Origin: Rhizaria sp. SCN 62-66
Lineage: Eukaryota
NCBI GenBank assembly: GCA_001724265.1
Contig: MEDY01000237.1
Coordinates: 62,001-89,270 of the forward strand
Length of the DNA stretch: 27,270 nucleotides
Direction: 5' to 3'
Below the pieces are notes generated by a model. It made no database searches and was not told the DNA's origin. It saw only the letters and a list, made by a program, of their open reading frames with translations. Every line of letters starts with the position of its first letter. The first letter of the stretch is position 1. The translations under genes and the position numbers were made by a program. Of this stretch, positions 1 through 27,270 are shown in pieces.

Positions 1-2
1 GG

Positions 3-2618
3 GACGAGATTGTGGCGCTGCTTGTGGCCGCTGAGGCGAAGTAGCGCGGTAGCGGCGGTGGTACTAGCAACCGCAGTTCCGGTGGCAACAATGGCGGCGG
101 GTCGAATAACTCTGGTGGCAATGGCAGTGGACTCGCGGCAGCAACATAGGCAAACCGGCATACCTTTGAATCTCTTTTTAACAACGCCAACAACAATGGC
201 AACAACAAATCAGACAAGAAGAACGCTAAGACGAGCTCGAACACCGACACGACCCGTCATAGTTCAAGTCAAAACACGTCCACTGTGAAAAGCTCACACA
301 GCAGCACCGAGACCAGCCCCAGCCACGACCGCAACATCGGCAGTAGTCCCCGCCGCCGCAATGTTAGCGCCGCCAGCCGCAACCGCAACAGCAGCAGCGG
401 CGGCAGCAGCGGTGGCGGCAGCAGCATCGCCGTCGACCGTGCGGCCGCCGCCGCCGCCGCCGCGGCCCGCGCAGCCGGGGACCCTTCGGGCGGCGCGCGG
501 GCGGTGCAGACGGCGGCGGCGGTCGAGTCCGCGCAGCGGCGCCTGCTGCTCGACAGCGCCATGGTCCCGGGGCTCAGTGTGGTGGCGCTGCCGACCGCGG
601 CCGAGGCGGCGGCGGCGAGTGTGGCTCGCGAGTGGGAGCAGGAGGAAGACGACGAGGCCGAGGTCGAGCACGGGTTTCTGCGGAACCTGCACAGCGGCGG
701 TGTAAGTAAGCTGAGCTTGAATAGCGGCGAAGACGATATCGGTCCTGTCGCTGTGCGGGGCGCCAAGAGTGTGGCTGCCGTCGTCACCGACAGTGGCGAG
801 GAGCTCGACCCCTTCGTCAATAACAGTGACATCGTCGATGTCTTGGACACCAACACTGTTGACCTTGACAGCGACGTTGAGCGCGCGTTTGGGGCGAGCA
901 ACAACAAAAACAAGCCTAAGTCAACGTCAAAGACTGCTCACATCGCTCCTGCCGTGTACACCGACGTTGAGGGCAACGAAACCGTCGTCAGCGCCGCTGC
1001 TAGCCGCGGCCCGCTGTCCGACGCGGAGGCGGAAGCCGAGGCCGAGGCCGTGTTGCAGCGCCTCATTGCCGACTCCGACTCCGAGTCAGCCGCCGGCCTG
1101 CGCGAGCGGCCGCGCCCGTCGTCGGCGCGCTCGCCGCCGCAGCGCGACCCGCAGTACGAGGAGCCGCTGCAGCGCAGCGTCGAGGGGCTGGCCGTGCGCC
1201 GCGGCGGCGTTCACCCCGTCACGGGACTGCCACTGGCTGCCGCCACCGCCGCCGTGTACCTCGACAGCGGTAGCGAAGGGGTCGAGTTCGGCCCTCTTGG
1301 CAGCGACAGCGACGGGCGGCTATTCATCAGCCGCGGTCACGGTTACGGTGGCGGCGACGACGCTGGGTCTGGCATGGAGTTCGACACCGCGAGCGGCAGC
1401 GGCAGCGACGGGGACTTCCGTGTCACTCACGGCCGTCGCAGCCTCGGCCGTCGCCGCGACGGCGGCGACAGCGACGGCGTCGACAGCGACGGGTACGACT
1501 CCGAGGGCCGCAAAGTAATCCGCGTGGTCAACGATGCCGGCGAGGTCGAGGTGTACGTGTTTTCTGACTCGGACGGCGAGCCGCGCTCACTCGACGAGGC
1601 CATGGAGGCGGTCTACAGGGCCACCGACGCCGACGCTGATGCCGCGGACAGCGACGGGCCGGACGCCGCGCTCGTCGCGCTTGCCAACGCCACCGATGTC
1701 GACGCGGACCACTTCTTCTCCGCGCACGGGCCCAGCGACGCGGCCGGCCGGGCGGACCCGTTTGGGTACTTCTCCAGCCAGAGCGAGAGCGAGGGCGCCG
1801 TTCTTCTGCACCGCGGCGGCGGCAGCAACAACGGCAACGGCGGCCGCAAGCTGCTGCCGCCGGTGCCCCCGCTGGGCGGCGGCTCCGGCGCGGCGCTGCA
1901 CGGCCACGGGCACGGGTACGCAACACACGGGTCGCTCGCATACGGGGACTACCTGCCGGGCGTTGTGCGTGACGCCTGTGCCCCCGGCGCGGTGCTCAGC
2001 GGCGCGGGCGGCGCGCTGCCGCCGGGGCCTGGGGACGAGTTCTACCACCACCGCAACGCGGTGATTCGCAAGCATCGCCACGCTGCTGCCGCAGTCGCTT
2101 CGGCGAAACCTGCGACGGCGACGGCGACGGCCAAGGCAGCAGCAGCGGCGGCGACCGCGGTGACGGCGACCGCGGTTGGCGTCAACGACGGGCGGCCCCC
2201 GAGCAGCGCCAAGGCGAACGCGACCGGCACTGGCACTGAGACCGACTCCGACAACAACTCTCCCAGTCAAAGCACCACTTACGCCGGTCTCAAGTGGGAC
2301 GACGGTGAGACCGCCGCGGGGCACCGCGCCGTCGCGGCTGCTGCAGAGCGCGGCGGCTGGCTGTCTGGCGCCGAATCCGCCGAGTCTGCGGCTGCCGAAT
2401 CCGAGCTGGACCTCGACTCTGACCTGGACGTCGCAGTCAGCACTAAGGCCAAGGCTGCGGCGGGGGCGGGGGCGGCGGCGGCGGGGAGCGACGAGGAGTG
2501 GGGCGGGCGGCTCAACGCGGACGAGGCCGAGGAGCGCCGGCGGCTCGAGACGCTGGCGCGGCTGGACGACATCGCGGCCGAGATCGCCGCGGGCGGGGGC
2601 CGGAGCAGGCGCAAGTGA
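3..2618 (+). CDS. 5'-truncated hypothetical low-complexity acidic protein (>=871 aa), read through two in-frame TAG codons (42-44, 147-149); many DSD/SDSE motifs
   Basis: The frame of ORF 285..2618 runs back to the window edge with no TAA/TGA: DEIVALLVAAEAK*RGSGGGTSNRSSGGNNGGGSNNSGGNGSGLAAAT*ANRHTFESLFNNANNNGNNKSDKK...STVKSSH. Composition matches the rest of the protein. GC drops sharply after TGA 2616-2618. No domain recognised. Confidence 0.8.
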
Positions 2619-2918: not shown

Positions 2919-5900
2919 TTACCGTGAGTTCTCCGTCGAAGTGATCCCGATCGAGAACTCGTGTTCGCTCATCCCGCCGAACTCTCCCCCAGCGCTCCCC
3001 GCCGCAGCGGCAGCGCCGAAGTCGCCGGAGCGCCGCGCGGCGGGGGAAGCGGGTCCGAACGCGGGCCACCCACCGGCGCCTGCCACCACGGGCCCCACGC
3101 CCGCCGCGGTGGCTGCGCTGGGCTGGCCGCGCGCGCCGACGGGGAGGCCGGGCGAGGCCGCGGCGCCCGCGGAGAGCGAGGACTTGGAGCTGGGGCGGTA
3201 GGCCGACTCGTCGACCAGAATGCTCGCGTAGCTGGGATCCGTCCCGCCGTTGCTGCCGCCGCCGCCGGCGGCGCCGTAGCCAAGGCCAGCCGCGTACGCG
3301 CTGCTGCCGTAGCCGCCACCGACGCCGCCGCCGACGCCGCCGCCGACGCCGAAGCCGTAGCCCGCGCCGCCGCTGCTGCCGTAGGCGCCGGAGCCTGAGG
3401 CGGCGGCGGCATAGCCCCCGAACCCGGTGTTGGCGGGCGCGGTGGGCGACGGGGCCTGGCCCCAGGCCGACCGCAGTCCGCCGCCGCCAGCACCAGCGCC
3501 AGCGCCGCTGTTGGCAAAGACGTTGCTGCCGCTGCCGTTGACGTTCGCGGGGCTGGCGTGGACGTTGGCGCCGCCGTAGGAGTTGAGCGCGGCGTTGTTG
3601 GCCGGCGAGGGCATGAAGGACAGACTGTCTTTGCCGCCGCTGCCGATGACGGCGGTGAGGTCGCCCGTCGCGGTCGAGGTGCCGTGCTGGCTGGGCGAGG
3701 CCGAGCCGCGGCTGCGGTGCACACGGTCACCGTCGCGGTCACGATCACGGTCACGATTACGGTCAGACTCGCGGTCACGGTCGCTGTCGCGCCTGTCCTT
3801 CTTGTCCTTCTTGTCCTTTTTGCTATCCCGGTCGCGGTCACGCTCACGTTCGCGGTCACCTTTATCGCTGGCGCCGTTGGACGACCGGCTAATGCTGTTG
3901 CGCCTGCTCCCGGCGGCCGCAGCGGCGGCGGCAGCGTTAGGAGTCACGGCCGCCACAGGCGTGCCGCTGCGGCTGTTATTCAAGCTGCCGCTGCGGCTGC
4001 CACTGCGGCTGCCGCTGAGGCTGCCGCGGCTCATGTTGAGCGCCTCCTCCTGCGCGCGCAGGAAGCCGCGGTTCTCGAGCGACTTGTCCAGCACGTACGG
4101 GCCGCCGACCGTGCCACCGCCGCCGCGGGCCTTGGCCTGTTGCTGCTGCTTCTCTGCGCGGCGGCGCTCGCGGTCGCGCTCACGGTCGCGGTCGAGCTCC
4201 AGCTCCCGCGCGCGCTCGGCCGCGGCCTCTGCGGCGGCGGCGGCGGCGGCGGCCTCGACCCTGGCGGCCGCGCGCTGCTGCCGTACGGCTTCGGTGCGCT
4301 TCTGCTCGGCGGCCGCGGCGGCCAGACGGGCGGACTCCTGCTGCTGGCGCATGCGCTCCAGGGCCTCCGCGCTCGTCGCGGCTGCGGAGTCCGCCGCGTC
4401 GCTACTGTGGGCAGCCGGGGGGATGTGCGCGCGCGCGAGGGCGCCCTGCAGCTCGCCAGTGAGAGTCGCAAAGTGCATGGACGACTGGGATACGGCACCG
4501 GTGTTGTTAAAGTTGTTAGCATATCCGTTAGGGTTTGCGCCGTTGGCGTTGTTAGCGTTTGCGGTATTGTTTGTGTTGTAGTGAGAGGGGAGAGCGGGGA
4601 TACTCGCGTCAAGGCCAAAATCAGCGTCGTCAAAGCCGTTGTTCTTGGCGACGTTGTTTCCGCTGCCAACACCGTTATTCTTGTTGTTGTTGTTAACCGT
4701 GTTGTTCTCGTCTTGCTTCACAGTGGGCACTGCAGCGGCCGAGGACGAGTCGAGGCCGCCACCAAGGCCGAGGCCGGCAAAGAGGGAGTCGTTCATCAAC
4801 GTCGTGTTGTTATTGTTACCGCTGCTATTGTAGAGACCGTTGTTGATGTTATTCGCTGCAGCATTGTTGTTACTGGCAGTCGGCAGCGCAAGCAGCTTCA
4901 TTTTCTGCTGTGGCTTAACGACGCTCTCGGCCTGGTATGCAGACGGCACCTCCTGGATCTCCTCAACGTGGTCCTCGCCGTCGTCCTTGCCGCCGTCGTC
5001 CTCGTCGATGACCGTATTGCCGAGGTCTAACCCATACGCCAGACTGAAGTCGCCGCTGCCCGCCGCCTGCAGCTTCGGCGCCGGCAGCGGCGCAGGCGCC
5101 GGCGCAGCGGCAGCAGCAGCAGCAGCACCGGCACCGGCGGTGGCGGTGATGGGACCCGTGGTGGCGAACGTGGCGGCGGCAGCGGCCGTGTCGTCAGTGG
5201 CGTCCAGGTCGAGGCCGAGGCCGCGGAGGAGGCTGTCGTCGTGTGCAAACGAGACGTTATTGTTCTTCTTCGCAACACCAGCAACACCAGCAGCGCCTCT
5301 AACAGTGCCGGTGACTGAGCTCGTGCTTGCGCCCGCACCGACAAGAGCGCCGGCGCCAGAGTTAACAACATCTGCGTTCCCAACATTCGCATTCGCGCTG
5401 TTGTTGCTGTTGAGAGTCGCAGGAACAGTGCGGGGCTGGATGGGTGAAAATCCTTCGAACAAGCTGCCAGGAAGACTCGCCACACCCGCATTCGGGCCAG
5501 CAGCGGCAGCAGCAGGGGCAGGGGTGGGGGCGCTGGTCGCAGCGGTGAGGGGACGCGCGCTGTTGCCGCCGCCGTTCCCACGGAGCCCTGCATTGCCGTT
5601 ATTGCCGGTGGCGACAGGCGTGTTGCCGCCGCCGCCGTTGTTGTTGGCGGCGCTGCCGCCGCCGTTGCTGCTGACCGAGGCCGAGCCGGGCGAAAGCAGC
5701 ACCACTGGCGCCGCGGCGGCGGGGATCTTGAACGGCGTAATGCCGATCAGCGCGCCGTGGCCGCCGCCGCCGCCGCCGGGCGCAGTGACGTTGTTGCCGT
5801 CATCGCTGGCGTTGGGGGCTGCGGGTGGGACTGTGGGCCGCGGGGTGACCGTGAGCGTGCTGTCCTGAACCGATGTCTCAGTGGCGTTAGCGGCGGCTGC

Positions 5901-7830
5901 AGCAGCGCCAGTCTCGTTGAGATCCGTCTCATCGAAATTGGCGTTTCTCATGCTGCGTCTCGCGTTGACACCATCGTCGCGAATGTTCGCAGCAGCAGGA
6001 ACGGAGATTGGCGCGGGCGCGCGCGGCGAATGCTGCATCGAGCTGTTCAGGCCCATCGCGCTCAGTAACGAGTCCGAGGCGGTATCCGCCGCCGCGGCCT
6101 CCGCAGCCACCGCCGCAGCAGCAGCAGCAGCCGCGGCAGCCGCAGCCTGACGCTTGGCCCTGAGCGCGTCCTTCTGCTGTTGCTGCAGCAGCCTACGCTT
6201 CGCGTCAGCCGCGGCCGCAGCCTCGGCCTCGGCCTCAGCGGCTGCGGCCGCGGCGGCAGCCTCAGCGGCAACAGCGGCGGCGGCCTCGGCCTCAGCGGCT
6301 GCGGCGGCCGCGGCGGCGAACGACTCATCACAGGGGTCGGTCTCAGCCTCGGCTGCGGCGGCCTCGGCGACGGCCGCGGCGGTAGCAGCAGCGGCGGCAG
6401 CGGTCGCTGCGGCCTTGCGGGCCTGGGCCTGCTGCCGCGCGCGCTGCATTGAGGCGACAACGTTGGCCAAACCGCCGCCTTCCGCGTCATCGTCAGCGCC
6501 GGCTCCGTCCTTGCCTTCGTTGTCACTATGATCAACGTCGTTGTCGTAGAGCTCCTGCTTGACAGGAGGAGCAGGCGCAGCCGTGTTAGACGGAGACTTC
6601 GCGATAATGTTCGAGTTATTCTTGACCGCTTGATGAGCACCAGCGCCGCTAAGATGGTTGTTGTTGATGTTGTGATAGTACAACTGCTGGTGATGCTGCT
6701 GCTGTTGTTGCTGCTGTAGCTGCAGCACCTGCACCTGCGCCTGCGCCAGCTGCAGCTGCAACAGCTGCTGCACCTGCGCCTGCGCCTGAGCCGTCGCCTG
6801 CGCCTGAGCCTGTTGCGACTGCAGCTGAGCCTGCAGCGCAGACTGCTGGTGGTGCACTGTGATAGCGCTGTCGCCGTCGCCGTTTGCGATTGCCGCATCG
6901 GCGACAGCAATCGGAGCGATGGCAGCGGCAGCAGCAGCAGGAGGGTTGAACAAGATCGCCGCGACTTGCGGCTTACCTTTCACGCCAGACCCCGTCGCCG
7001 CAGCCGCCGCAGCCACACCGGCCGAGGCCTCGACGGCGGCCAGACGGCGCTCCAGCTCTGCGCGCGCGGTGGCGGCCGCGGCGTCCCTGGCGGCGGCCGC
7101 GGCGGCCAGCGCGGAGGCCGAGGCCGAGAGCTGGTGGCCCCAGTCGGCGGCCTCCGCGGCGGCCTCGGCGGCCAGACTCGCGTGGACCGCCGCCCACGAC
7201 GACGCGGGCGGCGCGGGCGCCTCGGCCGCGACGGGGCCGGGGGCGGCGCTAGGGCCGGAGCTGTTGTTGATGTTCGCGCTGTGGCTGTGGCTGCGGTTGT
7301 GGTGGGACGCGCGCGCGCCACGCGTGCGGCCTGACTTCGAGGTGCTGACGATGCTGTAGTCCCTATTAGTGCTGACGCTTGCGCTCGCGCTAGCGGTGGT
7401 GCCGTCGGAGAGATAGGGCTCTGCGAGCGAGTCCGTCACCTGCACGCCTACGCTCTCGCGCATGACGGCAGCGGCGACGGCGCTGCCGACAGATCTCGCG
7501 TTTGCATTCGGGTTAGCGATGGCGTTGCTGTTGTTGTTGTTGTTGTTGTTGTTGCCATCATCATTGTCATCGTCGTCGTCGTCGTTACGATCGTCAGCGT
7601 CACCCGCTCTCGCTCTCAGCAGCTGCTCCTGCTGCTGCTGATGTTGTTGTTGCTGCTGCAGCTGCTGCTGCAGCGCAAGCGCCTTGTGCGCCTGCAGCTG
7701 GTCCTGCGCCACGGCCAGCTCCCGCTCAAGGTGCGCCTCGCGCTGCCGCCATACCGCCGAGGCCTGCAGCCGCTCCAGCGCGCCCGCGCGCACCGACGTC
7801 AGCCCTGCGCTCTCATCCCCTCCAGCACCA

Positions 7831-7861
<31 letters not shown>

Positions 7862-9226
7862 TGCCGTAGCCAGTGCCGGAGCCAGTGCGATCGCTGTTGG
7901 CCTTGTGCGCCGCGTGCTGCGGGGACGCGAAGTGCAGCGCGCGTGCGACGTCGACGTCATTCTCGTGCTCGCCGTCGCCCGCGAACGAGGCGGGGACACG
8001 GGACTGCGAGGCGGGGACGCGCGCGTGCATGTGCGCCGGAGTCAGCGCGAGCGCGGCGGCGGCGGCATTGGTAGCGACGCCGGAGTGGATCAGGCGCAGC
8101 AGCTGCGCGCGCTTGCGGGCCGTCGCGGCGCCGGCAGCGCCAATGACGGCGGTGTTCTCGACGGTCGCAGCGTTCGCAGCTGCAGCGGCATCGGCGTTGT
8201 TCGCAATCACGTTGCTGTTGCAGCTGCTCTTCACACTCTTGTTGTTGTTCTGGTTGTTGGCGAAAGAAGTGACCGGCGTGGAGTGCAACGCCACCAGGAA
8301 CGCGGGGTCGCGCCCCATCGGGCCCGTGGCGGCGCTGACGCCGAGCCGCGGGTCTTGGCCCAGGGGCAGCACCATCCTGCGCTCGCTGCCAGCGCCCAAA
8401 GCACCCGCAGTCGCGCTGGGGAGCAGCTTACCCCCGGCAGGAGCAGCGCCGTCCCGCGCCGCCTTAGCGCCGCCGCTGCTGCTGCTGCTGCTGCTGCTGT
8501 GCGCGCGGTGCGGAGTGACGATGGCCGCCGCCGCAAGCGCCTCATTGGCCCGCTCGTTCTCGCGCTCGCTGGCGACTTCGCTCTCAGCCTCCGCAGCCGC
8601 GCGCCGCAGGCGCGCCGCCGCCTCGGCCGCGTCCCGGGCCAACTCCCGCGCGCGCGCCCCGCGCAGCGGCAGCGGCGTGCCAGAGAGCAGGTGAGAGCGG
8701 CGCTGCGCGGCGGCGATGGCCGCAAGGCGCGCGTCGACCATGGCTAACTCCGCGCGCGCCGCGGGGGGCAGCATCGCGCCCACGCCCGCGCCCGCTGTAG
8801 CCGCCGCCGTCGCCGCCGTCGCCGCTGTGGCCGTAGTGGTCGTAGTGGTCGTGGCGGGGGCTGCGGTTACGGCGGTGACTCTGGGCGCAGCAGAGGAGCT
8901 GCTCACGGTCACTGGGGGGATCGCGCTGCTCACAGTCACCCCGTGATTGGTATAAACAGAGCCTGGGGAGGCTGAGGCGGAGACAGAGGCTGAGGAGAAC
9001 GTGAACGGCGACTGCTGCTGCTGCTGCTGCTGCTGTTGCTGGCACTGCAACTGTGACTAGACCTGAGACTTGTAAGGGGTTTGCGTGGGGACGTTGAAGT
9101 AAGTGCCCGCGGGGTAGACTAAGGGGTACTTAGCCTGTTGTTGTAAGGGCTCGACGCCGGGGGGGGCGTGTGACAGCGCAGCGGCCAAGGCGGCCTTGAG
9201 CTCGGCCTGGGACCTCACCGCCTGTC

Positions 9227-9264
<38 letters not shown>

Positions 9265-12032
9265 TGTTGCTGCTGCTGTTGCTGTTGCTGCGAAAGCTGT
9301 TTTTGCTGTTGCAGCACCTGCTGCTGGTGTTGCGCAAGAGAGGCGAAAGCAGGGTACTTTGACATCAACAAAGCGTTCATGTTGCCCGCATTAGCATCGT
9401 TGTGAGACTGCAATGTCTGTTGTTGCTGTTGCTGCTGCAGCTGCAGCTCTTGTTGCAGCTTCTGCAACGGCGATCGCGATCGCGGCTCCGACTGCAACCG
9501 CGACTGCAACTGACCATAAGCCCCAGCCCCAGCGCCAGCGCCAGCAGCACCAGCAGTAGCACTAGCAGCAACAGCAGCAGCAGCGGCAGTGGCAGCAGCA
9601 GCGGCAGTGGCATTAGCTGTAACAGGAACAGCGGCGGTGGCTTCGGTCTCCTCGTCCTCGATGCCGTCGCTCACGGTCACGCGCGAAGGGGACGACGTCG
9701 CCGCCGCTGCGGGTGCCGCCGCACTGCGGCTATGGCTGGGGCTATAACTCGCACCCAAACCAACACCAACATCAACAGCAACAGCAGCAGCAGCAGCATT
9801 AGCTTCGGTGTTAGTGATAGTGTGAGCAGAAGTGTTGTAGTTGTTGTTGCTATGCTGACTCTGGCTCTGGCTCTGACCCTTGTTCTGGCTGAGACTCGAA
9901 GCAGCTCCCCCTAAAGCCTGTGCCTCCGCCCGCGCGGCCCAGTACGCCCGCTCGCGCTCCTCAGCCTCGGCCTCGGCCGCGGTGGTGTCGGCCCCAGTCC
10001 CCGCCGCGGCGAGAGCTTCGGCACGGGCCGCAGCGCGCAGAGCGCGGTCGTGGGCGTCCATCTTGGCCGCCCAGTCAGAGGACGCGGCGTCGACGGGGTG
10101 ACCTTGGGCAGGAGTGGCGAAGGGACCGTGGGCAGCGGCAGTTGAGTGGCTGTGGGCAGCTGTGGTTGCAGCAGGAGTCATATCCGTGTTCGTGTTGCGA
10201 CTGCGCTGTTGCTGTTGTTGTTGGCCTTGTTGGTGTTGCTGTTGCTGATTCTGCTGACTCAGCAAGTGTAAGTACCCACTTAGACCCTCCCGCGGCGGGA
10301 AATCGTGAGCACGCGCCTCCTCTGCAGTCCAGACACCAGAGTACTCGAACACATCCTCGGCAGCAGCAGCGTGAGCGGGATTACTGAGGCCAGCGTTGTT
10401 ATAATAACCGAGATTATCCTTAGTGTGATTCGCCGTGAAATTGTTGTCGTTATACGGGTGATCATGTTCGTGTTGCCAATGCCGCGCCTCTGCCTCCGCC
10501 TCAGCCTTGACCATCTCTCGCGCCTTCATCGCATCATACGCCGCCCGCTGTTGCTCCTGCCACCCCGCCTGGTCCCCATGTGCTCCCCCATGGGTACCCA
10601 CGGGTCCGCGCGCCGCCGCCTGCGCCGCCGACACGCGCGGCCCCGCATCGTCCCCAAACCGCGCCGCCACCACCGGCAGCGACTCCGCAGCAGAGTCCAT
10701 GTTGCCTGCGGCGATGGCGCCCGCCGCGTGGGTCTGCGGCGGCGCGGCGAGGTAGTCGGGGTGTCGGTCGGGCCGCACCGCCGCGGGCGCATGTCCGGCG
10801 ACCGGGAACTCGGCCGCGTTGGGGCCGTGCAGGTGGCCCGCGGCGTGCGGCGGCAGCGGGCCCGCGGGGGGGAACGAGGCCACGGCCGTGGCGCCCGTCG
10901 AGGGCGGGGCTGCCATGGGCCAGGGGAACGACGACGCCGAGGGGGGCTGCGCGGCACCGTGCGTGCCCCCGTGTGTTCCACCGTGTGTACCGGGCGGGTT
11001 CGCGTCCGCGGTGGTGTAGTAGCGGTATGCGTGGCTCGTCGGGTCCAACATCTGCACTTGCTGTGCTTGCTGCGTCTGAGAGTGAGTGTTCGCCATGGAA
11101 TTGCCGTTATAAGTATTGTTATAAGTGTTGTTGTAAGTGCTCGGGGGCGGGTGGTCGGAGGGGAACGGCACCGGACTCGTCGGGTCGCCCCCGCCTGCAG
11201 TGCTGCCATGCCGGTACGCGTGATAACGCTGCTCACGGTCACCCGACGGAGCAGCAGAGTGACCGTGAGCAGCGGCAGCGGCGGCGCCGGGGGCAGCACC
11301 GCGGTCGGCGGTGTAAGCGTTATAGACGCCACCGCCGAGCCCCAGGCCCTGATCCTGCCCTGCTTGGCCCATAGCAGTGCCAGCGCCAGCGCCAATGTTG
11401 TAGACTGCGCCAGCGCTTGTGCTGGGGGCGTGGCCGAGCGCGCCGGGGGGGTTCGTGCCGGCGGCCGCACCCACGAGCATGGTCCCCGTCGGCTGCGGCA
11501 GCCTCGTCCCACCAGTGGCAGGAGTCAGATACGACGACTGCGGCTGCATGCCGGCCGCGAGCCCGGGAGCGGCGCCGGGAGCGCTGTTGCTGGGCCCGCC
11601 GCCGTAGCTCTGGTAGCTGTCACCGGCGGGGGCGGAACCCATGGCGACGGCAGGCGTGGGTGGGAAAGCTACTGCGGCAGGCGCGAGACCCAGCGCGGAG
11701 GCCGTCGACGTCAGGTGCGCAGGGGCCGCGGGGGCAGAACCGGGATACGCGGCCGCAGCGGAAGGCACGCCGACCAGGGACGTGCCCTGTGGAACGGGAG
11801 GCGCGGTAAGGGAGCCGGAGCTGCTCGCTGTGGGGTGACCATAACCCCCACCTTGCTGCTGCTGCTGTTGCTGCTGCTGATGTGCTTTGTTGGGGCCGTA
11901 GACGGCGCCCGTCGCTGGGAATAAGTGCTCCGCGGGAAGAGACGTCTCAAATGGGTTGGAAATAGAAGATGTGGAGAGGGCTTGGGGCGCGGCGCCGAAG
12001 GCAGCCTCCGGGGGAGGGCCGAGGTACGACAT
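2919..12032 (-). CDS. Very large intrinsically disordered protein (~3037 aa) with polyQ/polyA/polyN tracts, probable coiled coils and an RD/RE-rich segment; one in-frame TAG at 9057-9059
   Basis: Track ORFs 9057..12092 and 2919..9050 are in the same frame, joined by AAG TCT CAG GTC TAG TCA CAG TTG CAG TGC CAG (KSQV*SQLQCQQQ). First ATG at 12032 (MSYLGPPP), TAA at 2919-2921 followed by AT-rich DNA. There is no AT-rich spacer and no ATG at the junction. Confidence 0.8.
9228..9290 (-). repeat. CAG/CAA trinucleotide tract encoding 21 consecutive Gln
   Basis: 63 nt of (CTG/TTG)n on +, inside the large - strand CDS. Confidence 0.95.
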
Positions 12033-12919: not shown

Positions 12920-13435
12920 TTAGAAGTAGTTGACATGCTCGTCGGCTGCGATGGCCTGGCACTTAACGACCTCGACCTGCTTGTGGTTCGGGGGCAGGGG
13001 GCGGAAGAAGCGGCACGCAATGAACTCGGCCTCGGGCGCAGAGTTCGTGGTGGCGATCTTGACGAAGAAGTTGGTGCCGGCAACGACCTGGGCGCGGTAC
13101 TCGACGGGGGCCAGCGCGGCGGCGGCAGAGACGCCGAGCACACCAGTCAGAGAGAGGATCTGAGGGGTGGCGCCGGCGACGATGTCCTCCACGACGGGGT
13201 CCGCGGGGCGGATGTCGGAGGCACCGCCAGGGAGGGGAACCTGTGGTGCGGAGCGAGAGGGAGAACAAGAGTGATCAAGGGTGAGTCAAGTGGAGTCAAG
13301 GCGACGTAGGCAAGTGAGAAGACTGGGGGAAGTTGATATTGGGAAGAACAAAGAGAGAAGGAAACGTACGAAGCCCATAGCGGATGCGAGGACGCAAGCC
13401 AGGAGGACAAGGACGGCAACGGAAGTGAAGCGCAT
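12920..13435 (-). CDS. Cystatin (stefin/type-1-like cysteine protease inhibitor) with N-terminal signal peptide, 128 aa; exons 13435-13370 and 13240-12920
   Basis: Spliced product MRFTSVAVLVLLACVLASAMGF|VPLPGGASDIRPADPVVEDIVAGATPQI...EYRAQVVAGTNFFVKI...FIACRFFRPLPPNHKQVEVVKCQAIAADEHVNYF*. It has the N-terminal PGG, the QVVAG inhibitory loop, a stefin-like LP second loop and a C-terminal DE..xYF. Stop is TAA. Confidence 0.92.
13241..13369 (-). other. Spliceosomal GT-AG intron (129 nt, phase 0) in the cystatin gene
   Basis: Donor TTC|GTACGT, pyrimidine-rich body with an in-frame TGA (13286-13288), CTCAC/TTGAC branch-like motifs, acceptor CACCACAG|GTT. Splicing joins the signal peptide to the cystatin domain in frame. 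Confidence 0.9.
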
Positions 13436-14395: not shown

Positions 14396-15151
14396 TTAGG
14401 AGCGGGGCGCGACGGCGCAGACCTGGGCAGGGCGCAGCACGCGGTCCTGGATCATGTAGCCGTCCTTGATGATGAACGAGATGGTGCCAGGCTCCTGGTT
14501 GGGGTCGGGCAGCTGCGCCGTGACGTCGTGGAGGTTGGGGTCGACCTTCTGGCCGAGCGACTCGTACTTAGCCACGCCCTGGCCGGCGAGGACCTTGGCG
14601 AATGTCGCCTGGGTCATCGTGATGCCCTCGAGCATGTTGCGCAGGGGCTCGTTGTCAGCGTTGGCGGCCAGCTGCTTGTTGCCGGCGCCGATGGCCATGT
14701 CGACGGTGTCGGCGACGTCGAGCAGCGCCTTGCAGAAGGACGAGATGCCGAACTTCTTGGCGGAGGCGACGTCCTTAGCCGTGCGCTCGCGGATCGCGTC
14801 CTGCTCGGCCACCTCGGCCACCACGCGGTCCTGCAGCTCCTTGACCTTGGACTGCACCTCGCGGGTGCCCAGCTCGGCCTTGGCCAGCGCAGCCTTAAGC
14901 GTGTCGACCTGCTTCGACAGCTCCGCGGTGCGGGCCGCCGCGGCGGCAGTCGCGGCGCGCTCCGTATCGAGCAGGGCCTCGAGCGACTCGACAGTCACCT
15001 CCTGCACGGCCTCCTTGTCCGCGGGCGCGGCCGTGGTGAAGCGGCGCAGGGTCACGGAGCGGGAAGAGAAGAGCGACGAGGTGGACGCGGCCGAGGAGGA
15101 GACGCGGGAGATGGCGCCGGCCGTGCGGGTGAAGGTGGAGAATGCACGCAT
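14396..15151 (-). CDS. grpE: Mitochondrial GrpE (Mge1) Hsp70 nucleotide-exchange factor, 251 aa, intronless
   Basis: GrpE motifs: IRERTAKDVASAKKFGISSFCKALLDVAD, MLEGITMT, SLGQKVDPNLHD, PGTISFIIKDGYMIQDRVLRPAQVCAV. The Ser/Arg/Thr-rich, acid-free N-terminus (MRAFSTFTRT...LRRF) looks like a mitochondrial presequence. ATG 15151, TAA 14396-14398. Confidence 0.95.
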   Translation of the reverse strand: MRAFSTFTRTAGAISRVSSSAASTSSLFSSRSVTLRRFTTAAPADKEAVQEVTVESLEALLDTERAATAAAAARTAELSKQVDTLKAALAKAELGTREVQSKVKELQDRVVAEVAEQDAIRERTAKDVASAKKFGISSFCKALLDVADTVDMAIGAGNKQLAANADNEPLRNMLEGITMTQATFAKVLAGQGVAKYESLGQKVDPNLHDVTAQLPDPNQEPGTISFIIKDGYMIQDRVLRPAQVCAVAPRS

Positions 15152-15754: not shown

Positions 15755-18700
15755 TTAAAGAGCGGCGAAGGGTGTCTTGACAAGCGTATCCGTGCCCTTT
15801 GCGGAGCGGGCGAGCGTCTTAAGGAATCCCAGCGCAAGCAGCGACTGCGCAGCGCGCTCAAACCGGGCCTGGATCGGCACGCTGTTGAGCAGTTCGCGGA
15901 TTTGGGGCGTCATACGGAGCATCTTACCGCCTCCAGCGCAGGAGCGACGAGGCTTGCGACCACGGCGCTTCCGCACGCTACTGGTCTCTCCCTCCTCTTC
16001 CTCCTGCTCCTCCTCCTCTTCTCCGTCGTCGTCGTCGTCGTTGCTGTCATTGTTGTCGTCGTTACCGTCTGTGTCGGACATCGCGCGGCGCTTAGCCCCG
16101 CCCTTGCGCTTCGACTTGGCAGCTTTACCAGATGACTCTGCATCATCATCGTCGTCGGCATCGTCAGAGTCAGGATCGTCGAGGTCGTCTTGGTCAACAA
16201 ACTCGACTTCAACCCCCGCCGCGGCGCACGCAAATGCAAGGAACCACTCTCCAGCCTTGACGACACTGTCACTGCCCTCCAGAAGCCCCGCGGCAAGTGT
16301 GATATCGTCGCTGCCGCGGCCGAGACTCGCGCCCGCGCCCGCCGCCGCCGCCGCAGCAGCCGCCGCAGCCGCGGGGCCGCCACGGAAAGGCGCGCCCGAG
16401 AGCAGAACGCTGTTCTGCTGCAGACCGCCGCCGTGGGAGCTTGTGAGCGTCGTAGCGGTGGCGGCGACGACTGCGGCGAGCGCGGCCGTGCCCTTTGAGC
16501 GGAGGAAGTTTAGCCGCATGTGCGATGGCACCGCGTCGGCGCCGGCGGCCCAGTACGCTGCAACAGGGGGCGCAAGCGCGTCGACCGAGGCCGCGTCAAG
16601 GCCCCAGAGACGGGGTGGGGCGCCCACCGCGGGCGCGGAGGAGCTCCGGGCATCTGAGTGGCCGTGAGCCGGAGCCTGGGAGTGACTGGGCTGGGGCGGA
16701 ATGAGGGCGACGGAAGGCGGCAGCAGCATGTGAGGCAGCGGTTTGGTATCGCAACGCTGCTGTTGCTGCTTGAGCTTGAGCCTCTGCTGCTTCTTCTGCT
16801 GCTGTTGAGCCTTCGGGGTCGTCCCAGTGCGCTTGCCATGAGCACTGTCGTTGTCACTGTCACCGTCACCAATCACGACGCTGGCGTCCGAGCCACCGCG
16901 TGCGCTACTGTTACTGTTACTGTTGCCGTTGATACTCTCGGTTGCGCCAGTGGCGGCAGCCCAGAGCCCGACAGCCCGGAGTCCGGCCCAGGCCCCCACG
17001 CTGCCCTCCGCGTCGACTACGCCCGCAGCAGAGCCACTGGAGGCGCTGGCGTTCGAGGCGGCGCGGACTTGCGCGGCCGCCTGCTCGGCCGTGACCGCCG
17101 CCGCCTCTGCCGCGAGATAGAACCCGCCCGCGGCGGCCCCGGCGACGGCGGCGCGCGCGTCCGCGGCCGGCTCGGCTAACCCAGCGGCCGAGGCGACGGC
17201 CTCGAGGTCGCCGGGGGCGGCTCCGGCGAGTTGGGCCTCGTGCAAGGGCAGGCTGGACAGAGGAGTGCCAGCCCAGGGCAGGAGGGTGCAGAGCGCGCGG
17301 AGACAGCGCTGGCGCAGGGTATGCTCGTCGGGAGCGATGAACACAGAGCTGGGGTCGGTGCTATCGCAATTGTCGGCGCTCGCACTCGCATTCGCACTGT
17401 TATCACCCATGCTATTGTTGTTCGTGCTGTTCGAGAATCTGAGCGCGGTTGCCGCGGCGGGCCGTTGCGGCTGCGCCTGTGAGCGCGAGGCAGAGTACCG
17501 GTGGCTTGCGCGCGAGGGAGAGACGGGCGGTGTCTTGTACTCGACGCCGTCAGCGCCACCGTTGGAGTCGCCAACGTTGTCGCCGGTGTCGTCGTCATCG
17601 TCACACATCGCTTTACCGGCATTTGCACCTGCAACGGCTGCAGCGGCGGCTTGCGCCTTTGCGATCATGCGTTGAGCCACGGCCTCCTCCTCAGCGTCAG
17701 CTTCGGCAGCAGCAGCCGCAGCAGCCGCAGCCTCCGCCCCAGCGCCAGCACCAGCTACTTTCGCAGCAGTCGCGGCGGCAAGAGGGCCCTGGATGTACGC
17801 AACGACCTCCTCGGACGCGGTCTTGACTGCGGCGGCGGCGACGCCAAGCGTGCCGACGTACACGACGCCGCCGCAGCGCGGGGATGGCAGCGCGGCGCGC
17901 GCGGCGACGGCGAGCGCGGAGGCCAGTTCGTCAAGGCTCGAGCTGAGAGAGAGCAGAGATACGGTCGATGTCACTGTGAGCAAGTGACTGAAGCCTAAAG
18001 TTAGTGCGGGGGACAGAGAAGCAGCGGCCTCAGCCTCTGCAGCAGCGATGGCCGTTGAGACACAATTCGAATCGGCACTTGCGCGTGCACTCGCGCTCGC
18101 TGCAGCGTCACAGCTGGTGCTGATCTCAGCGCTGGAAACAGGAGCAGATGCAAGGGCCGCGGCAGCAGCACCGCGACCGCCCCGCCGAGACGGCGACTCA
18201 TAACTTGCATTCAACGACACAGAAACAGAAGTGCTAGAGGCCCCAATATTGCTCGCACTGTATGCGCTCGCGTTCGAGCTACTCGGCGTGCCAGGAGCGC
18301 TCTTCTGTGGTTGATGTTGTCGCTGTGCGACCATGCGCGCCGCAGCCTCCGCGGACCCCGCGACGGGCATGTACGTCAGCATCTGCCGCGCCACCGCGGC
18401 CTGCTGCTGCGTCTCCCGCACGAACGTCCCCGCGGTGGCGCCGGAAGGCAGCGCGAAGAGCAGCGCGAGCACGGTCGGCGGAAGCGACGCGAAGCGCGGC
18501 GCGAGGTGCGACAGGAACGCGGTCAACACGGGCAGCAACAGCGGCCGCGCCAGCAACGCCAGGTCCCAGTCGCGCAGCAGCAGCGACAGGCGGTGCAGGG
18601 CCGCGCGCGGGAGAGGCCACGGCAGCGGGGCAAACGCCGGGTCTTCAGACTGCGCCCCTGCAACAGTGGGCGACTGGGAGCAGGCGAGTGCGGAGAGCCG

Positions 18701-21700
18701 GCCCGTGAGGACCCACCGGCGCAGCGCGGGCGCGACGGACGGCAGCGCGAGCAGCGCGGAGACGTCGGCGCGCGAGAGCGATAGGCACAGCGCGGTGAGC
18801 TGCGGCGGCGGCGCGGGCGCGGAGCGGGGGACCGTGGTCTGGCCCAGCTGCAACAGGAAGACCTGCGACTGCGGCCGTGAAATGGTCTTGGCAGCTGCAG
18901 AAGTCGTGCTTGCGCTGTTGGCTGCTGATTGAAGAGGGGCAGTGCTGCTGGTCGGCAGTAAGACGTCCGAAGCCACGTTAGCAGTGGTCGCAGGTGACGC
19001 GGTAGCAGAAGCGCGACCGCGGCTGCGGGCACCGCCTCGGCCGCGCGCAGCAGCAGCACGAGGACTCGCATCTGCGTTAACGATCCTGTTGTTGTTCGCT
19101 GCGGTCTCAGTTCCGGGCTCAGCCTTGACAATAATATCGTCATTCATACTGCTGTTCAATTGAACATTCGAGCTCATACGATTACTGCTGTTAGCAAAAG
19201 ATGATAGCGCATAACCAAGGCCACTCATTGTCATCTTCGCGGCCACTACTGCGTTCTCAGCATCCCGCCCCACGGGATCCACGCACGCGATAGGTCCCCG
19301 CCTCTTCACTATGGCCGGAGCCGGCAGCGCAGTGGCGAGCACCCACGTCGGTCCCCGCGCGCGCACGTGATGCAGCATGTACGCCGCGCGGACAACGCGC
19401 CATGCGAGCGCGTCACCGCCAGCGGCCGCAGCGGCAGCCAGCCCACCGCCAACGCTGGCATTCGCTCCGGAGCCTGCGGCAGAGCCAGCGGCGCCACCAG
19501 CGCTGCCATTGCCCACGCTGTTGGGGGCTGCATGTGCGCCTGACGCCATGGCTTCGAGCGCAAGCTGTGCAATGCGGGGGTCCAGAGTGAGGCCGCTGGG
19601 GAAGAGGGCCGCATGAAGAGCGAGCGAGGCGATGCCCGGCGCGGTGGAGTCGGAGTGCCAGACCGTGGGGGCGGCAGGGGGAAGCATGTGCAGAGAACGG
19701 CAGAGGAAGGCGTTGGCGCCGGTCTCAGAGCCAGAGGCAGAGCCAGTGGCAGAGTTGGGGCCGGCGGAGTTCGCGCCGAAGTGGGCGACGGAGAGGAGCG
19801 CAGAGGCGGAGGCAGAAGCAGCGGCAGTGATTGCAGCAGCCGTGCTGCTCTCGGAGTTGTTCTCGATCGGATTAGATGCTATCATAACAACGGCAGCGGA
19901 AGCAGAAGCAGAGCTAGTGGTATCAGCATCAGAAGCCGACTTAAACTCAGAATCTGTGATCGCGATATTCTTGCTAGCAATGGTACCAGTCGCAATGCTA
20001 CTGCTGCTGTGGGTGAGTGTCAGCTGTGGCTGCTGCTGTTGAAGTTGTTGCTGCTGCTGCGGTTGCTGTTGCGAAGCCGGTGTGACCTGTGTGAAGCTGC
20101 ACAGACTCACCACATCCGGCGGCAACACCACGTGCACCGCGCCGGCACTCATCCCCACGATCGCTGCGGCGACCGTAGGGACGCGCGACACCACTGTGCC
20201 CGACGCCCAGTACCGCAGGAAACCGCCGAAGACGGGCCCCGCCGCGGCTTCGGCGTCAGCGACCACCAGCGCCAGCTGTGGCATCGTGGCGGCGGCCAAC
20301 GGTACCGGCGCCGGCGCCGGCAGCAGTGGGTACAACGGCCGCAGCGCGGCACCACGGACCAGCGCGCGCGCGTGCGCGTTGACGCAGTGGCGCGCAAGCG
20401 AGAGCAGCAGGCGGGCGCGCGCGCGGTGCCAGCGCTGCGCGTACACCCAGTGCTCGGTGAAGTACCGGAAAAAACCCAGCTCCAAGTCGGCGGCGGTGCC
20501 GCGGCCGCAGAGCGCGACGCAGACGCGGGCGATCGCGGCCGCAGCATGGTTTTGTGGCTGCAGCGCGAGTAGCAGCGCGGTGTCGGGCAGCGCGCGGGGC
20601 AGGGCAGTAACGGGGCGTGCAGTGGTGATCGCGATCGTGCTCTTGCGGGTCGCTTCGTCGATCTCGTCGCTGTCGGTGTCAGTGCCGGAGTCCTCACACT
20701 TGACGCCTCCGCGAGCAGTGGCGCTGTCGGCGTTGGGGCTCGCACTCGCGTCTTCGTCGTCGTCAGAGTCAGCCATGACTGCGGGCGAGCGAGCGCCGCC
20801 GCGGGCGTTTGCCCGCCTCTTGGTGGGAGTGCGCGAACTCTCATCATCATCGTCATCATCGTCGTCATCATCGTCGTCGTCGTTATCGACACGCTTCTTG
20901 CCGGATTCAGACTTAATATTCTTGTTTCTCGCATTCCCGCCATCATCATCAGCAGCATCATCAACATCGTCATCATCATCGCCAATGTAGCTCAGACCAT
21001 CACCGTGAGCACCGTCAGTGCCTGAGCTCGCGTTCGCAAGCAGAGCGGCAATTCCCCTGCCCGCCGTGTTTCCGGCCCCGCCCAGATTCAGCGCCAGCGC
21101 CGCCGCGGTCCGCGCGTTGCTCCCGTCGGCCTTGCCGTCGGCGACCAGCCCGCGCACGGCGTCCTGCAGCGCCGACAGCAGCGCGCGCGCGGCGCTGAGC
21201 CCGCCGTCCGAGTCGCCGAAGACGGCGGTGAACACCTCGCCCTCCCACTCCTCGATGCGACTCGCAGTCGTGCTTGCGCTTACACTTGCATTCGCACTCG
21301 CAGCATTCGCGTTCGTGTTGACGTTGCCGGGCGTGTGACCGGCGAGGAAGAGCTCGTCCTCGAGCGCAATACGACGCATGCGCGCGTACTCGCTGAACAG
21401 ATCCAGGTGCGGCCGCCCCAGCGCGCGCCGCTGCAGCTTGTGTCGGAGCGTCGCAATCGCGCGCTTGAGCTTGGGCGTCAGCCGGAACGCGGCGACCTCG
21501 AGCAGCACGGCGCGCGTGGCGGCGGCGTGCAGCGCGGCGCAGAGATCGGAGTCGCGCCGCGCCGCCGCCAGCGCTTCGCGGAAGGAATCCGCCGCGACCG
21601 TGAGCGCACGCGATGACACGCGGCGCAGGATGTCGGTGGCGTCGGCCGCGGTCGTCTGGTCCGTCACGGCAGGCGGCAGCGACGGGCGCGAGGCGCGGGG

Positions 21701-27268: not shown

Positions 27269-27270
27269 GC

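What the first reader, a model, noticed from the sequence alone, without database searches (positions are those of the whole stretch)
9048..9071. Single in-frame TAG in a Gln-rich context fuses two ORFs into one ~3037-aa gene, pointing to UAG=Gln
Seen: the - strand reads AAG TCT CAG GTC TAG TCA CAG TTG CAG TGC CAG CAA CAG, i.e. K-S-Q-V-*-S-Q-L-Q-C-Q-Q-Q. The TAG sits where the x-Q alternation predicts Gln, between two polyQ tracts. The downstream 2043-codon frame has no nearby ATG and lacks the AT-rich spacer found at every other gene boundary here. The only frame-preserving donors nearby (GTCTAG, GTCTAC, GTCCCC) are poor matches to the GTACGT donor of the cystatin intron. Inference: this is second-gene support for UAG reassignment and the best clue to the amino acid. 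Alternatives are programmed readthrough giving short and long isoforms, a nonsense allele, or a 12-18-nt micro-intron.
Basis: partly seen in the sequence, partly recalled or inferred. Interest (0 to 1): 0.8.

Follow-up and report, generated by a model that had tools for sequence, protein, structure and literature searches.

The report
Protist reads stop TAG as glutamate
This uncultured wastewater protist does not use TAG as a stop signal and most likely reads it as glutamate (not glutamine, as first suggested) while keeping TAA and TGA as stops, a nuclear genetic code not found in the papers searched.

Summary
The TAG at 9057-9059 (-) is real and joins a 3037-codon frame. TAG is a sense codon here: over 985 kb of this genome, 19 of 20 TAGs after coding sequence continue as coding, and 0 of 118 terminator-like stops are TAG. 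In-frame TAGs interrupt eRF1, MetRS, FAP21 and kinases.

The amino acid is most likely Glu. The genome has a CUA-anticodon tRNA with a tRNA-Glu body. All 3 near-invariant columns found under a TAG are Glu: eRF1 109/120, kinase hinge 193/200, FAP21 6/6.

Against: many TAGs, this one included, arose from CAG or sit in Gln-like context. A control (AGA/AGG Arg codons) shows context does not reliably give a codon's meaning. eRF1 carries T32S.

UAG=Glu with UAA and UGA as stops was not found in six literature searches. The organism is probably rhizarian (weakly placed). The scan noted a UAG=Glu reading before in an unrelated bacterium (unchecked). Odds: Glu 0.78, mixed or leaky 0.12, Gln 0.07.

The parts
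9057..9059 (-). In-frame TAG, read as a sense codon (most likely Glu; probably arose from CAG)
   Evidence: context score Gln-like
2919..12032 (-). Single 3037-codon low-complexity gene spanning the TAG, ending in TAA; no family found
   Evidence: no Pfam hit for either half; the ESM Atlas holds the 991-aa piece cut at the TAG
42..44 (+). In-frame TAG in gene 1
147..149 (+). Second in-frame TAG in gene 1
1..2618 (+). 3' part of gene 1, a 1691-codon frame that starts about 2.46 kb before the window and ends in TGA; ankyrin-like repeats upstream (motif recalled, not tested)
14396..15151 (-). GrpE gene ending in TAA (control terminator)
12920..13435 (-). Cystatin-like gene with a 130-nt intron, ending in TAA (control terminator and intron)
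   Evidence: (PF00031 below its cut-off)
15755..27270 (-). 3' part of a gene of more than 3837 codons with no TAG, ending in TAA

Best explanation
The organism uses a nuclear code in which UAG is a rare sense codon for glutamate, while UAA and UGA terminate. Shown from sequence: UAG is absent from the gene ends sampled and lies in-frame in conserved genes; a tRNA gene with a CUA anticodon and a tRNA-Glu body exists; eRF1 has T32S and G57S. Inferred: GluRS charges this tRNA; its C32-A38 pair makes it an efficient UAG reader; a C34 anticodon does not pair with UAA, so UAA stays a stop; the eRF1 changes weaken UAG recognition. TAGs at invariant Glu sites would be silent GAG>TAG changes. TAGs in polyQ or variable sites, like the window's, would be CAG>TAG changes tolerated as Gln>Glu.
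For: Stops: TAG 19 of 20 continue coding and 0 terminate; TAA 67 of 70 and TGA 51 of 53 terminate; 0 of 118 terminators are TAG against a 21% background share, p about 6e-13. tRNA: L036:1489-1561(-), anticodon CTA, Rfam tRNA 58 bits, T-run downstream. Its best match among 18 own tRNAs is Glu-CTC (47 of 73 identical, score 68); Gln-CTG gives 38 and score 30, Gln-TTG 40 and 19.5. Its acceptor pairs U1-A72, C2-G71, C3-G70, C4-G69, A5-U68 are those of both Glu tRNAs; Gln tRNAs start GG and have U73. It has A38 where own Glu tRNAs have C38; in human tRNA-Glu(CUA) that change raised suppression more than 20-fold, and the optimised variant inserted about 95% Glu (PMC12204705 passages). Near-invariant columns: eRF1 residue 107 is E109, D10, V1, Q0 of 120; TKL kinase hinge is E in 193 of 200 rows, Q0; FAP21 is E in all 5 alignments shown of 8 PDB hits and in a 68%-identical relative. 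Pfam bits summed over 7 sites: E 810.4, K 806.9, Q 806.5, S 802.2, Y 797.1, L 793.9, W 791.5. eRF1 T32 and G57 are invariant in 120 of 120 homologues but S here; T32 is intact in all 26 standard-code rows of PMC5304391 Fig. S2.
Against: Only 3 near-invariant columns were found. Gln-side sites: the kinase in L039 has Q in its 81%-identical orthologue, and the column is Q17, K14, E3 of the top 50; human NEK1 has Q at the L040 site; two TAGs in L146 face CAG in paralogous copies; three TAGs lie in a Gln-rich stretch of L149. A context mixture over 35 sites gives an E-like weight of only 0.39 (95% range 0-0.77), and pure-E fits 8.3 log units worse than pure-Q. The base after TAG (C in 16 of 35) matches CAG (46%) rather than GAG (30%). 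Pfam scores separate E from K and Q by under 4 bits, and K is top at 3 of 7 sites. TNNI3K has Q and KSR has S at the hinge. The nearest eRF1 relative has V at 107. The tRNA is only 64% identical to Glu-CTC. E. coli amber tRNA-Glu inserts 59% Glu and 17% Gln. T32S keeps a hydroxyl, so its effect is unknown. No proteomic or spanning RNA data.
Confidence: 0.78

Rival explanations
1. UAG is ambiguous: the single tRNA-Glu(CUA) found is partly charged with Gln, or competes with a still partly active eRF1, so UAG gives a mixture of Glu, some Gln and termination.
For: TAG is very rare, about 18 in 128,360 codons or 0.14 per 1000, against GAA 636 and CAA 610. One CUA tRNA gene was found against 8 Glu-CTC copies. 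Both Glu-type and Gln-type sites occur. E. coli amber tRNA-Glu is mixed.
Against: 0 of 118 terminators are TAG. In-frame TAG sits in eRF1 (the only eRF1 proper found) and in MetRS upstream of its KMSKS motif. Human GluRS charges tRNA-Glu(CUA) normally, with about 95% Glu inserted. Mixed context is also seen for unambiguous Arg codons.
Confidence: 0.12
2. UAG encodes glutamine.
For: Window context; L039 orthologue Q; NEK1 Q; CAG in paralogues of L146; Gln-rich L149; context mixture compatible with pure-Q.
Against: 0 of 3 near-invariant columns are Gln; Q is absent from 120 eRF1 homologues and 200 kinase rows; Q is never the top Pfam residue at 7 sites. The one CUA tRNA found is Glu-like, and the pattern search found no Gln-type CUA tRNA.
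Confidence: 0.07
3. Standard code; the TAGs are nonsense alleles, assembly errors, micro-introns or gene-specific readthrough sites.
For: In a GC3-rich genome, single-base errors would give TAG more often than TAA or TGA (codon counts; inference). 4 of 9 TAG-only kinase hits were intron acceptors. L146 looks like a drifting duplicate. No RNA contig spans the window site.
Against: It cannot explain 0 of 118 TAG terminators, the CUA tRNA or the eRF1 changes. eRF1, FAP21 and NEK align without a gap across the TAG. A second public record, which may come from the same sample, has the eRF1 TAG at 100% identity over 1626 bases. Measured introns are about 130-292 nt.
Confidence: 0.03

Closest known systems
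Oligohymenophorea sp. PL0344 code, UAG=Glu and UAA=Lys (PMC10553269, passages)
   Same: UAG read as Glu; tRNA-Sup(CUA) most similar to tRNA-Glu; UGA stop.
   Different: There UAA is Lys and UGA is the only stop, with 10 CUA tRNA genes, in a ciliate. Here UAA is the commonest terminator (67 of 118), one CUA tRNA was found, and UAG is very rare.
Iotanema spirale, Hartmannula sinica and Trochilia petrani, UAG=Gln with UAA/UGA stops (PMC5304391 sections 6 and 9; PMC11687900 and PMC9161772 passages)
   Same: UAG alone reassigned; eRF1 T32 altered (T32G in Iotanema, T32S here).
   Different: Amino acid is Gln there. No cognate tRNA was found in Hartmannula or Trochilia, and it was only predicted for Iotanema.
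Rhizarian exLh (Sainouroidea) and TARA phyllopharyngean MAGs, UAG=Leu (PMC5304391, PMC11687900)
   Same: UAG alone reassigned; exLh is a rhizarian, as this organism probably is; its eRF1 gene also contains in-frame UAG.
   Different: Leu there, with UAG frequent (13 in the eRF1 gene) and T32 intact. Leu scores 16.5 bits below Glu here.
Peritrich ciliates and Blastocrithidia, UAR=Glu (PMC11687900 passages; PMC12153298 listing only)
   Same: UAG=Glu.
   Different: UAA is also Glu there (dual meaning in Blastocrithidia). Here 1 of 70 TAAs continues as coding.

Membership tests
UAG-only nuclear reassignment (UAA and UGA kept as stops) | In-frame UAG inside conserved coding sequence | tested here: met
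   eRF1, MetRS, FAP21, and kinases L039, L040, L046, L047, L147
UAG-only nuclear reassignment (UAA and UGA kept as stops) | UAG not used at gene ends; UAA and UGA are | tested here: met
   0 of 118 terminators TAG; 67 TAA, 51 TGA, in 985 kb of 34.9 Mb
UAG-only nuclear reassignment (UAA and UGA kept as stops) | tRNA gene with CUA anticodon | tested here: met
   L036:1489-1561(-), G000:C84
UAG-only nuclear reassignment (UAA and UGA kept as stops) | eRF1 that no longer terminates at UAG | tested here: inconclusive
   T32S, G57S and T58K seen; function not measurable here; T58K also occurs in standard-code ciliates
UAG-only nuclear reassignment (UAA and UGA kept as stops) | Amino acid confirmed in protein | not testable with these tools
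   Needs mass spectrometry
UAG=Gln code (Iotanema type) | UAG at hyperconserved Gln columns | tested here: not met
   0 of 3 near-invariant columns are Gln; Gln seen only at variable columns or in paralogues
UAG=Gln code (Iotanema type) | tRNA-Gln-derived CUA tRNA | tested here: not met
   The CUA tRNA found matches Glu; the search covered only intronless tRNAs with a short variable loop
UAG=Leu code (rhizarian exLh type) | UAG at conserved Leu columns and a tRNA-Leu with long variable arm | tested here: not met
   Leu 16.5 bits below Glu over 7 sites; 73-nt tRNA with a 4-nt variable loop
UAR=Glu codes (peritrichs, Blastocrithidia) and PL0344 code | UAG decoded as Glu by tRNA-Glu(CUA) | tested here: met
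   By sequence only
UAR=Glu codes (peritrichs, Blastocrithidia) and PL0344 code | UAA also a sense codon | tested here: not met
   67 of 70 TAA terminate; a UUA-anticodon tRNA was not searched for
Pyrrolysine system | tRNA-Pyl shape (6-bp anticodon stem, short D and variable loops; recalled) and PylRS | tested here: inconclusive
   ARAGORN's 'Pyl' label follows the anticodon only; the fold is an ordinary Glu-type cloverleaf; PylRS was not searched for

The most novel reading that the evidence does not exclude
A new nuclear code (UAG=Glu, UAA and UGA stop) caught in an ambiguous state: one tRNA-Glu(CUA) competes with a T32S eRF1 that still partly terminates at UAG, and the UAG inside eRF1's own reading frame acts as a feedback switch on eRF1 level, as the internal stop does in bacterial prfB (recalled). 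The chance that eRF1 holds a UAG at the background rate is about 6%. If the organism is a sainouroid, UAG was also reassigned twice in that group, to Leu and to Glu.
Probability: 0.12. Interest if true: 0.92.

Novelty: new variant of a known kind. Interest (0 to 1): 0.8.

Why it matters
It would add a nuclear genetic code not in the lists seen. Known UAG-only codes are Leu, Gln and Ser, and Glu is known only with UAA also reassigned (PMC11687900 passages). Unusually, the cognate tRNA and an altered eRF1 are both in hand, so how eRF1 can drop UAG while keeping UAA and UGA becomes testable: T32S and G57S in a reporter or in vitro termination assay. The natural tRNA carries the C32-A38 change that engineers introduced to make human Glu amber suppressors work. 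With UAG at about 0.14 per 1000 codons, the genome offers a case for comparing codon-capture and ambiguous-intermediate models, and suggests such codes are easy to miss. Public protein sets cut these genes at the TAG.

Tried and rejected
Reads (contigs of 4 runs): no other letter was listed at 9057-9059, but no listed piece spans the site. The poly(A) run has pieces on the downstream frame (5624-6157, 6377-6649, 7878-8240, 8508-8770), which does not show one transcript. Inconclusive.

Family searches for more TAG sites: AAA gave 0 of 22 matches; myosin 1 of 6 and SNF2 3 of 25 had TAGs; the two inspected (myosin C165, SNF2 C217) were intron acceptors, and two SNF2 rows with mixed stops were not inspected. 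Of 9 TAG-only Pkinase rows in 142, 4 were intron acceptors and were dropped. Two mixed-stop rows (C520, C178) were not inspected. About 8 of 26 TAGs were edge or acceptor cases and were dropped before the rate of 18 in 128,360.

Uninformative sites: MetRS, L040, L045, L046, L047 and UBLCP1 columns are variable or unaligned. The FAP21 site lies outside its Pfam model.

Relatives: the metagenome scan with a relative's eRF1 gave 4 loci, one identical to this genome and three at 61-62%. The tRNA pattern had 0 hits in viral contigs.

Taxon: the 18S (L130) is very divergent and could not be compared with named sequences; whether that contig belongs to this organism is untested. Atlas searches did not place the organism.

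Other readings rejected: UAG-C as a readthrough context, because CAG shows the same +4 bias; pyrrolysine, as a label artefact. Three of four CTA-pattern hits were not tRNAs.

Full report
Setting. The window is G000:C237:62001-89270 of a 34.9-Mb, 714-contig eukaryotic assembly. Runs holding it are bioreactor, wastewater and activated-sludge samples; 4 of 16 listed runs hold at least half the words. Genes are long, GC3-rich and low-complexity, with AT-richer spacers.

Observation. The quoted bases are correct, and the TAG lies at 9059-9057 on the - strand. ATG 12032 to TAA 2919 gives 3037 codons with this one internal stop; the downstream part is 2045 codons and its first ATG is 95 codons on. 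Neither half has a Pfam family. Gene 1 has two more in-frame TAGs (42-44, 147-149) in a 1691-codon frame that starts upstream of the window. The five genes in the window end in TGA, TAA, TAA, TAA and TAA. Nine introns measured elsewhere are about 130-292 nt with pyrimidine-rich acceptors; the 12-78-nt candidates listed at this site have no such tract.

TAG is not a stop. I trained a coding model on long frames and scored every stop triplet that follows 50 coding codons, in 158 loci (985 kb, with overlaps removed by sequence; about 3% of the genome). TAG: 19 of 20 continue coding, 0 are followed by non-coding DNA. TAA: 67 of 70 terminate. TGA: 51 of 53 terminate. Fisher p=1.4e-19; 0 of 118 terminators are TAG against a 21% share among stop triplets in AT-rich DNA. 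A looser first pass gave 18 of 20, 1 of 72 and 6 of 61 continuing. One of the 19 (L055) is probably an antisense frame, and some TAA/TGA rows may be stops just inside introns. In-frame TAG interrupts eRF1, a MetRS upstream of its KMSKS motif, FAP21 and several kinases. The codon is very rare: about 18 in 128,360 codons after dropping about 8 edge or acceptor cases of 26.

The decoder. A pattern search for a CTA anticodon loop gave 4 hits, of which one is a tRNA: L036:1489-1561(-) on contig C84. It is followed by a T-run and lies among genes of the same style as the window. Among 18 own tRNAs it is closest to Glu-CTC (47 of 73, score 68), then Glu-TTC (46, 50.5); Gln-CTG gives 38 and 30. Raw identity separates the top rows poorly (Met 46, Ile 45); the alignment score and the acceptor stem carry the call. 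The first five acceptor pairs equal those of both Glu tRNAs and base 73 is a purine; Gln tRNAs begin GG and have U73. U11-A24, U13-G22 and the missing base 47, named as E. coli Glu determinants (PMC9976931 passages), are present but also occur in Gln-CTG, so they do not discriminate. The loop has C32-A38 where own Glu tRNAs have C38. In human tRNA-Glu(CUA) this change raised UAG suppression more than 20-fold, human GluRS charged the CUA form normally, and the optimised variant inserted about 95% Glu; the E. coli equivalent inserts 59% Glu and 17% Gln (PMC12204705 passages).

Which amino acid. By the 90% conservation criterion of PMC5304391 (section 6), I found three informative columns, all Glu. 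eRF1 107: E109, D10, V1 of 120 homologues (human E). A TKL kinase hinge: E in 193 of 200 aligned domains from 149 proteins, Q in none. FAP21: E in the 5 alignments shown of 8 PDB hits and in a 68%-identical relative. Pfam bits over 7 sites sum to E 810.4, K 806.9, Q 806.5, S 802.2, Y 797.1, L 793.9, W 791.5; E is top at 4 sites, K at 3, Q at none. This excludes Leu, Tyr and Trp but only weakly separates E from K and Q.

Evidence for Gln. The L039 kinase has Q in its 81%-identical orthologue, in a variable column (Q17, K14, E3 of the top 50). NEK1 has Q at the L040 site. Both TAGs of L146 face CAG in paralogous copies; in one, the next codon also differs by C>T. L149 has three TAGs in a Gln-rich stretch. 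TNNI3K has Q at the hinge, and the nearest eRF1 relative has V at 107. A context classifier on 35 hand-picked sites gives an E-like weight of 0.39 (0-0.77), with pure-E fitting worse than pure-Q by 8.3 log units. So many TAGs, probably including the window's, descend from CAG. As a control, the Arg codons AGG and AGA look only 0.50 and 0.58 Arg-like against Lys, and AGA 0.0 against Gly: context is an unreliable guide to meaning, probably because it records the ancestral codon. Under UAG=Glu, CAG>TAG transitions survive at variable sites and only GAG>TAG survives at invariant sites, which is the pattern seen. UAG=Gln would need three E>Q changes at invariant columns and a Glu-type tRNA charged with Gln (inference).

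Release factor. eRF1 has GSS for GTS (T32S) and G57S, where 120 of 120 homologues have T and G, plus T58K; NIKS and YxCxxxF are intact. T32 contacts the G of UAG and is Gly in Iotanema (PMC5304391 section 9); Iotanema's standard-code relatives keep GTS (PMC9161772 passages). T32 is intact in all 26 standard-code rows of Fig. S2. As I read that PDF text, Tetrahymena shares S57-K58, but K58 also occurs in standard-code ciliates. Human T32A lowers UAA and UAG activity alike (PMC3384315 passages), so a UAG-specific effect of T32S is a hypothesis. An 84%-identical relative keeps T32 and G57.

Organism. Probably Rhizaria: the best named hit of the L039 kinase is Plasmodiophora brassicae at 58%, and eRF1 V38 (2 of 120 homologues) is shared with Guttulinopsis, exLh and Reticulomyxa. 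FAP21 suggests a flagellate. It is not Rosculus vilicus (37.7% GC; PMC10770858 passages). A sainouroid affinity is a guess.

Novelty. PMC11687900 (passages) lists UAG-only nuclear codes as Leu, Gln and Ser, and Glu only in PL0344, where UAA is Lys (PMC10553269 passages). Searches returned no UAG=Glu code with UAA and UGA as stops. The library lacks most subscription papers, and supplements of bioRxiv preprints were closed; either could hold such a report. The scan had no notes on this genome; one unchecked note proposes UAG=Glu in a gut bacterium.

Verdict. UAG as a sense codon: about 0.97. Glu 0.78, mixed or leaky 0.12, Gln 0.07, artefact 0.03. New variant of a known kind; interest 0.8.

Noticed in passing
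L130:1501-5945 (G000:C706): Very divergent 18S rRNA gene of 4445 bases with 4 Rfam group I introns; the first insertion is long enough to hold a homing-endonuclease frame (not tested). Whether the contig belongs to this organism is untested.
   Followed up: partly
L002:1594-1596 (-), eRF1 gene, G000:C63: The release-factor gene itself carries an in-frame TAG although its exon has GC3 0.89; chance at the background rate is about 6%.
   Followed up: partly
L146:3-3599 (G000:C681): Frame of at least 1198 codons at 48-49% GC with a long internal duplication, a copy of the host ubiquitin and a C-terminal part that recalls phage-tail chaperone (peptidase S74) domains (recalled, not tested); two TAGs face CAG in paralogous copies.
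   Followed up: partly
   Followed up: no
L046-L048, L149, L150, L152, L153, L159: An expanded kinase family with HGD in place of HRD in the members read and lower GC3 (measured only for L149), apparently richer in in-frame TAG than the rest of the genome.
   Followed up: partly
L012:2709-2793 (-): 85-nt tRNA-like gene that ARAGORN could not assign (Thr or Tyr), probably an intron-bearing tRNA-Tyr.
   Followed up: no
P0249; window 9060-12032: Public protein sets hold this organism's proteins cut at the TAG.
   Followed up: yes
P0005, P0127, P0248 (JGI proteins): One or more unnamed close relatives (68-84% identity) exist; the eRF1 among them keeps T32 and G57, so the code change may be restricted to this lineage.
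   Followed up: partly
L075:4330 (+), L071:9555 (-), L100:4869 (+): Two TGA and one TAA scored as continuing in coding sequence; could be mis-scored ends or selenocysteine sites.
   Followed up: no
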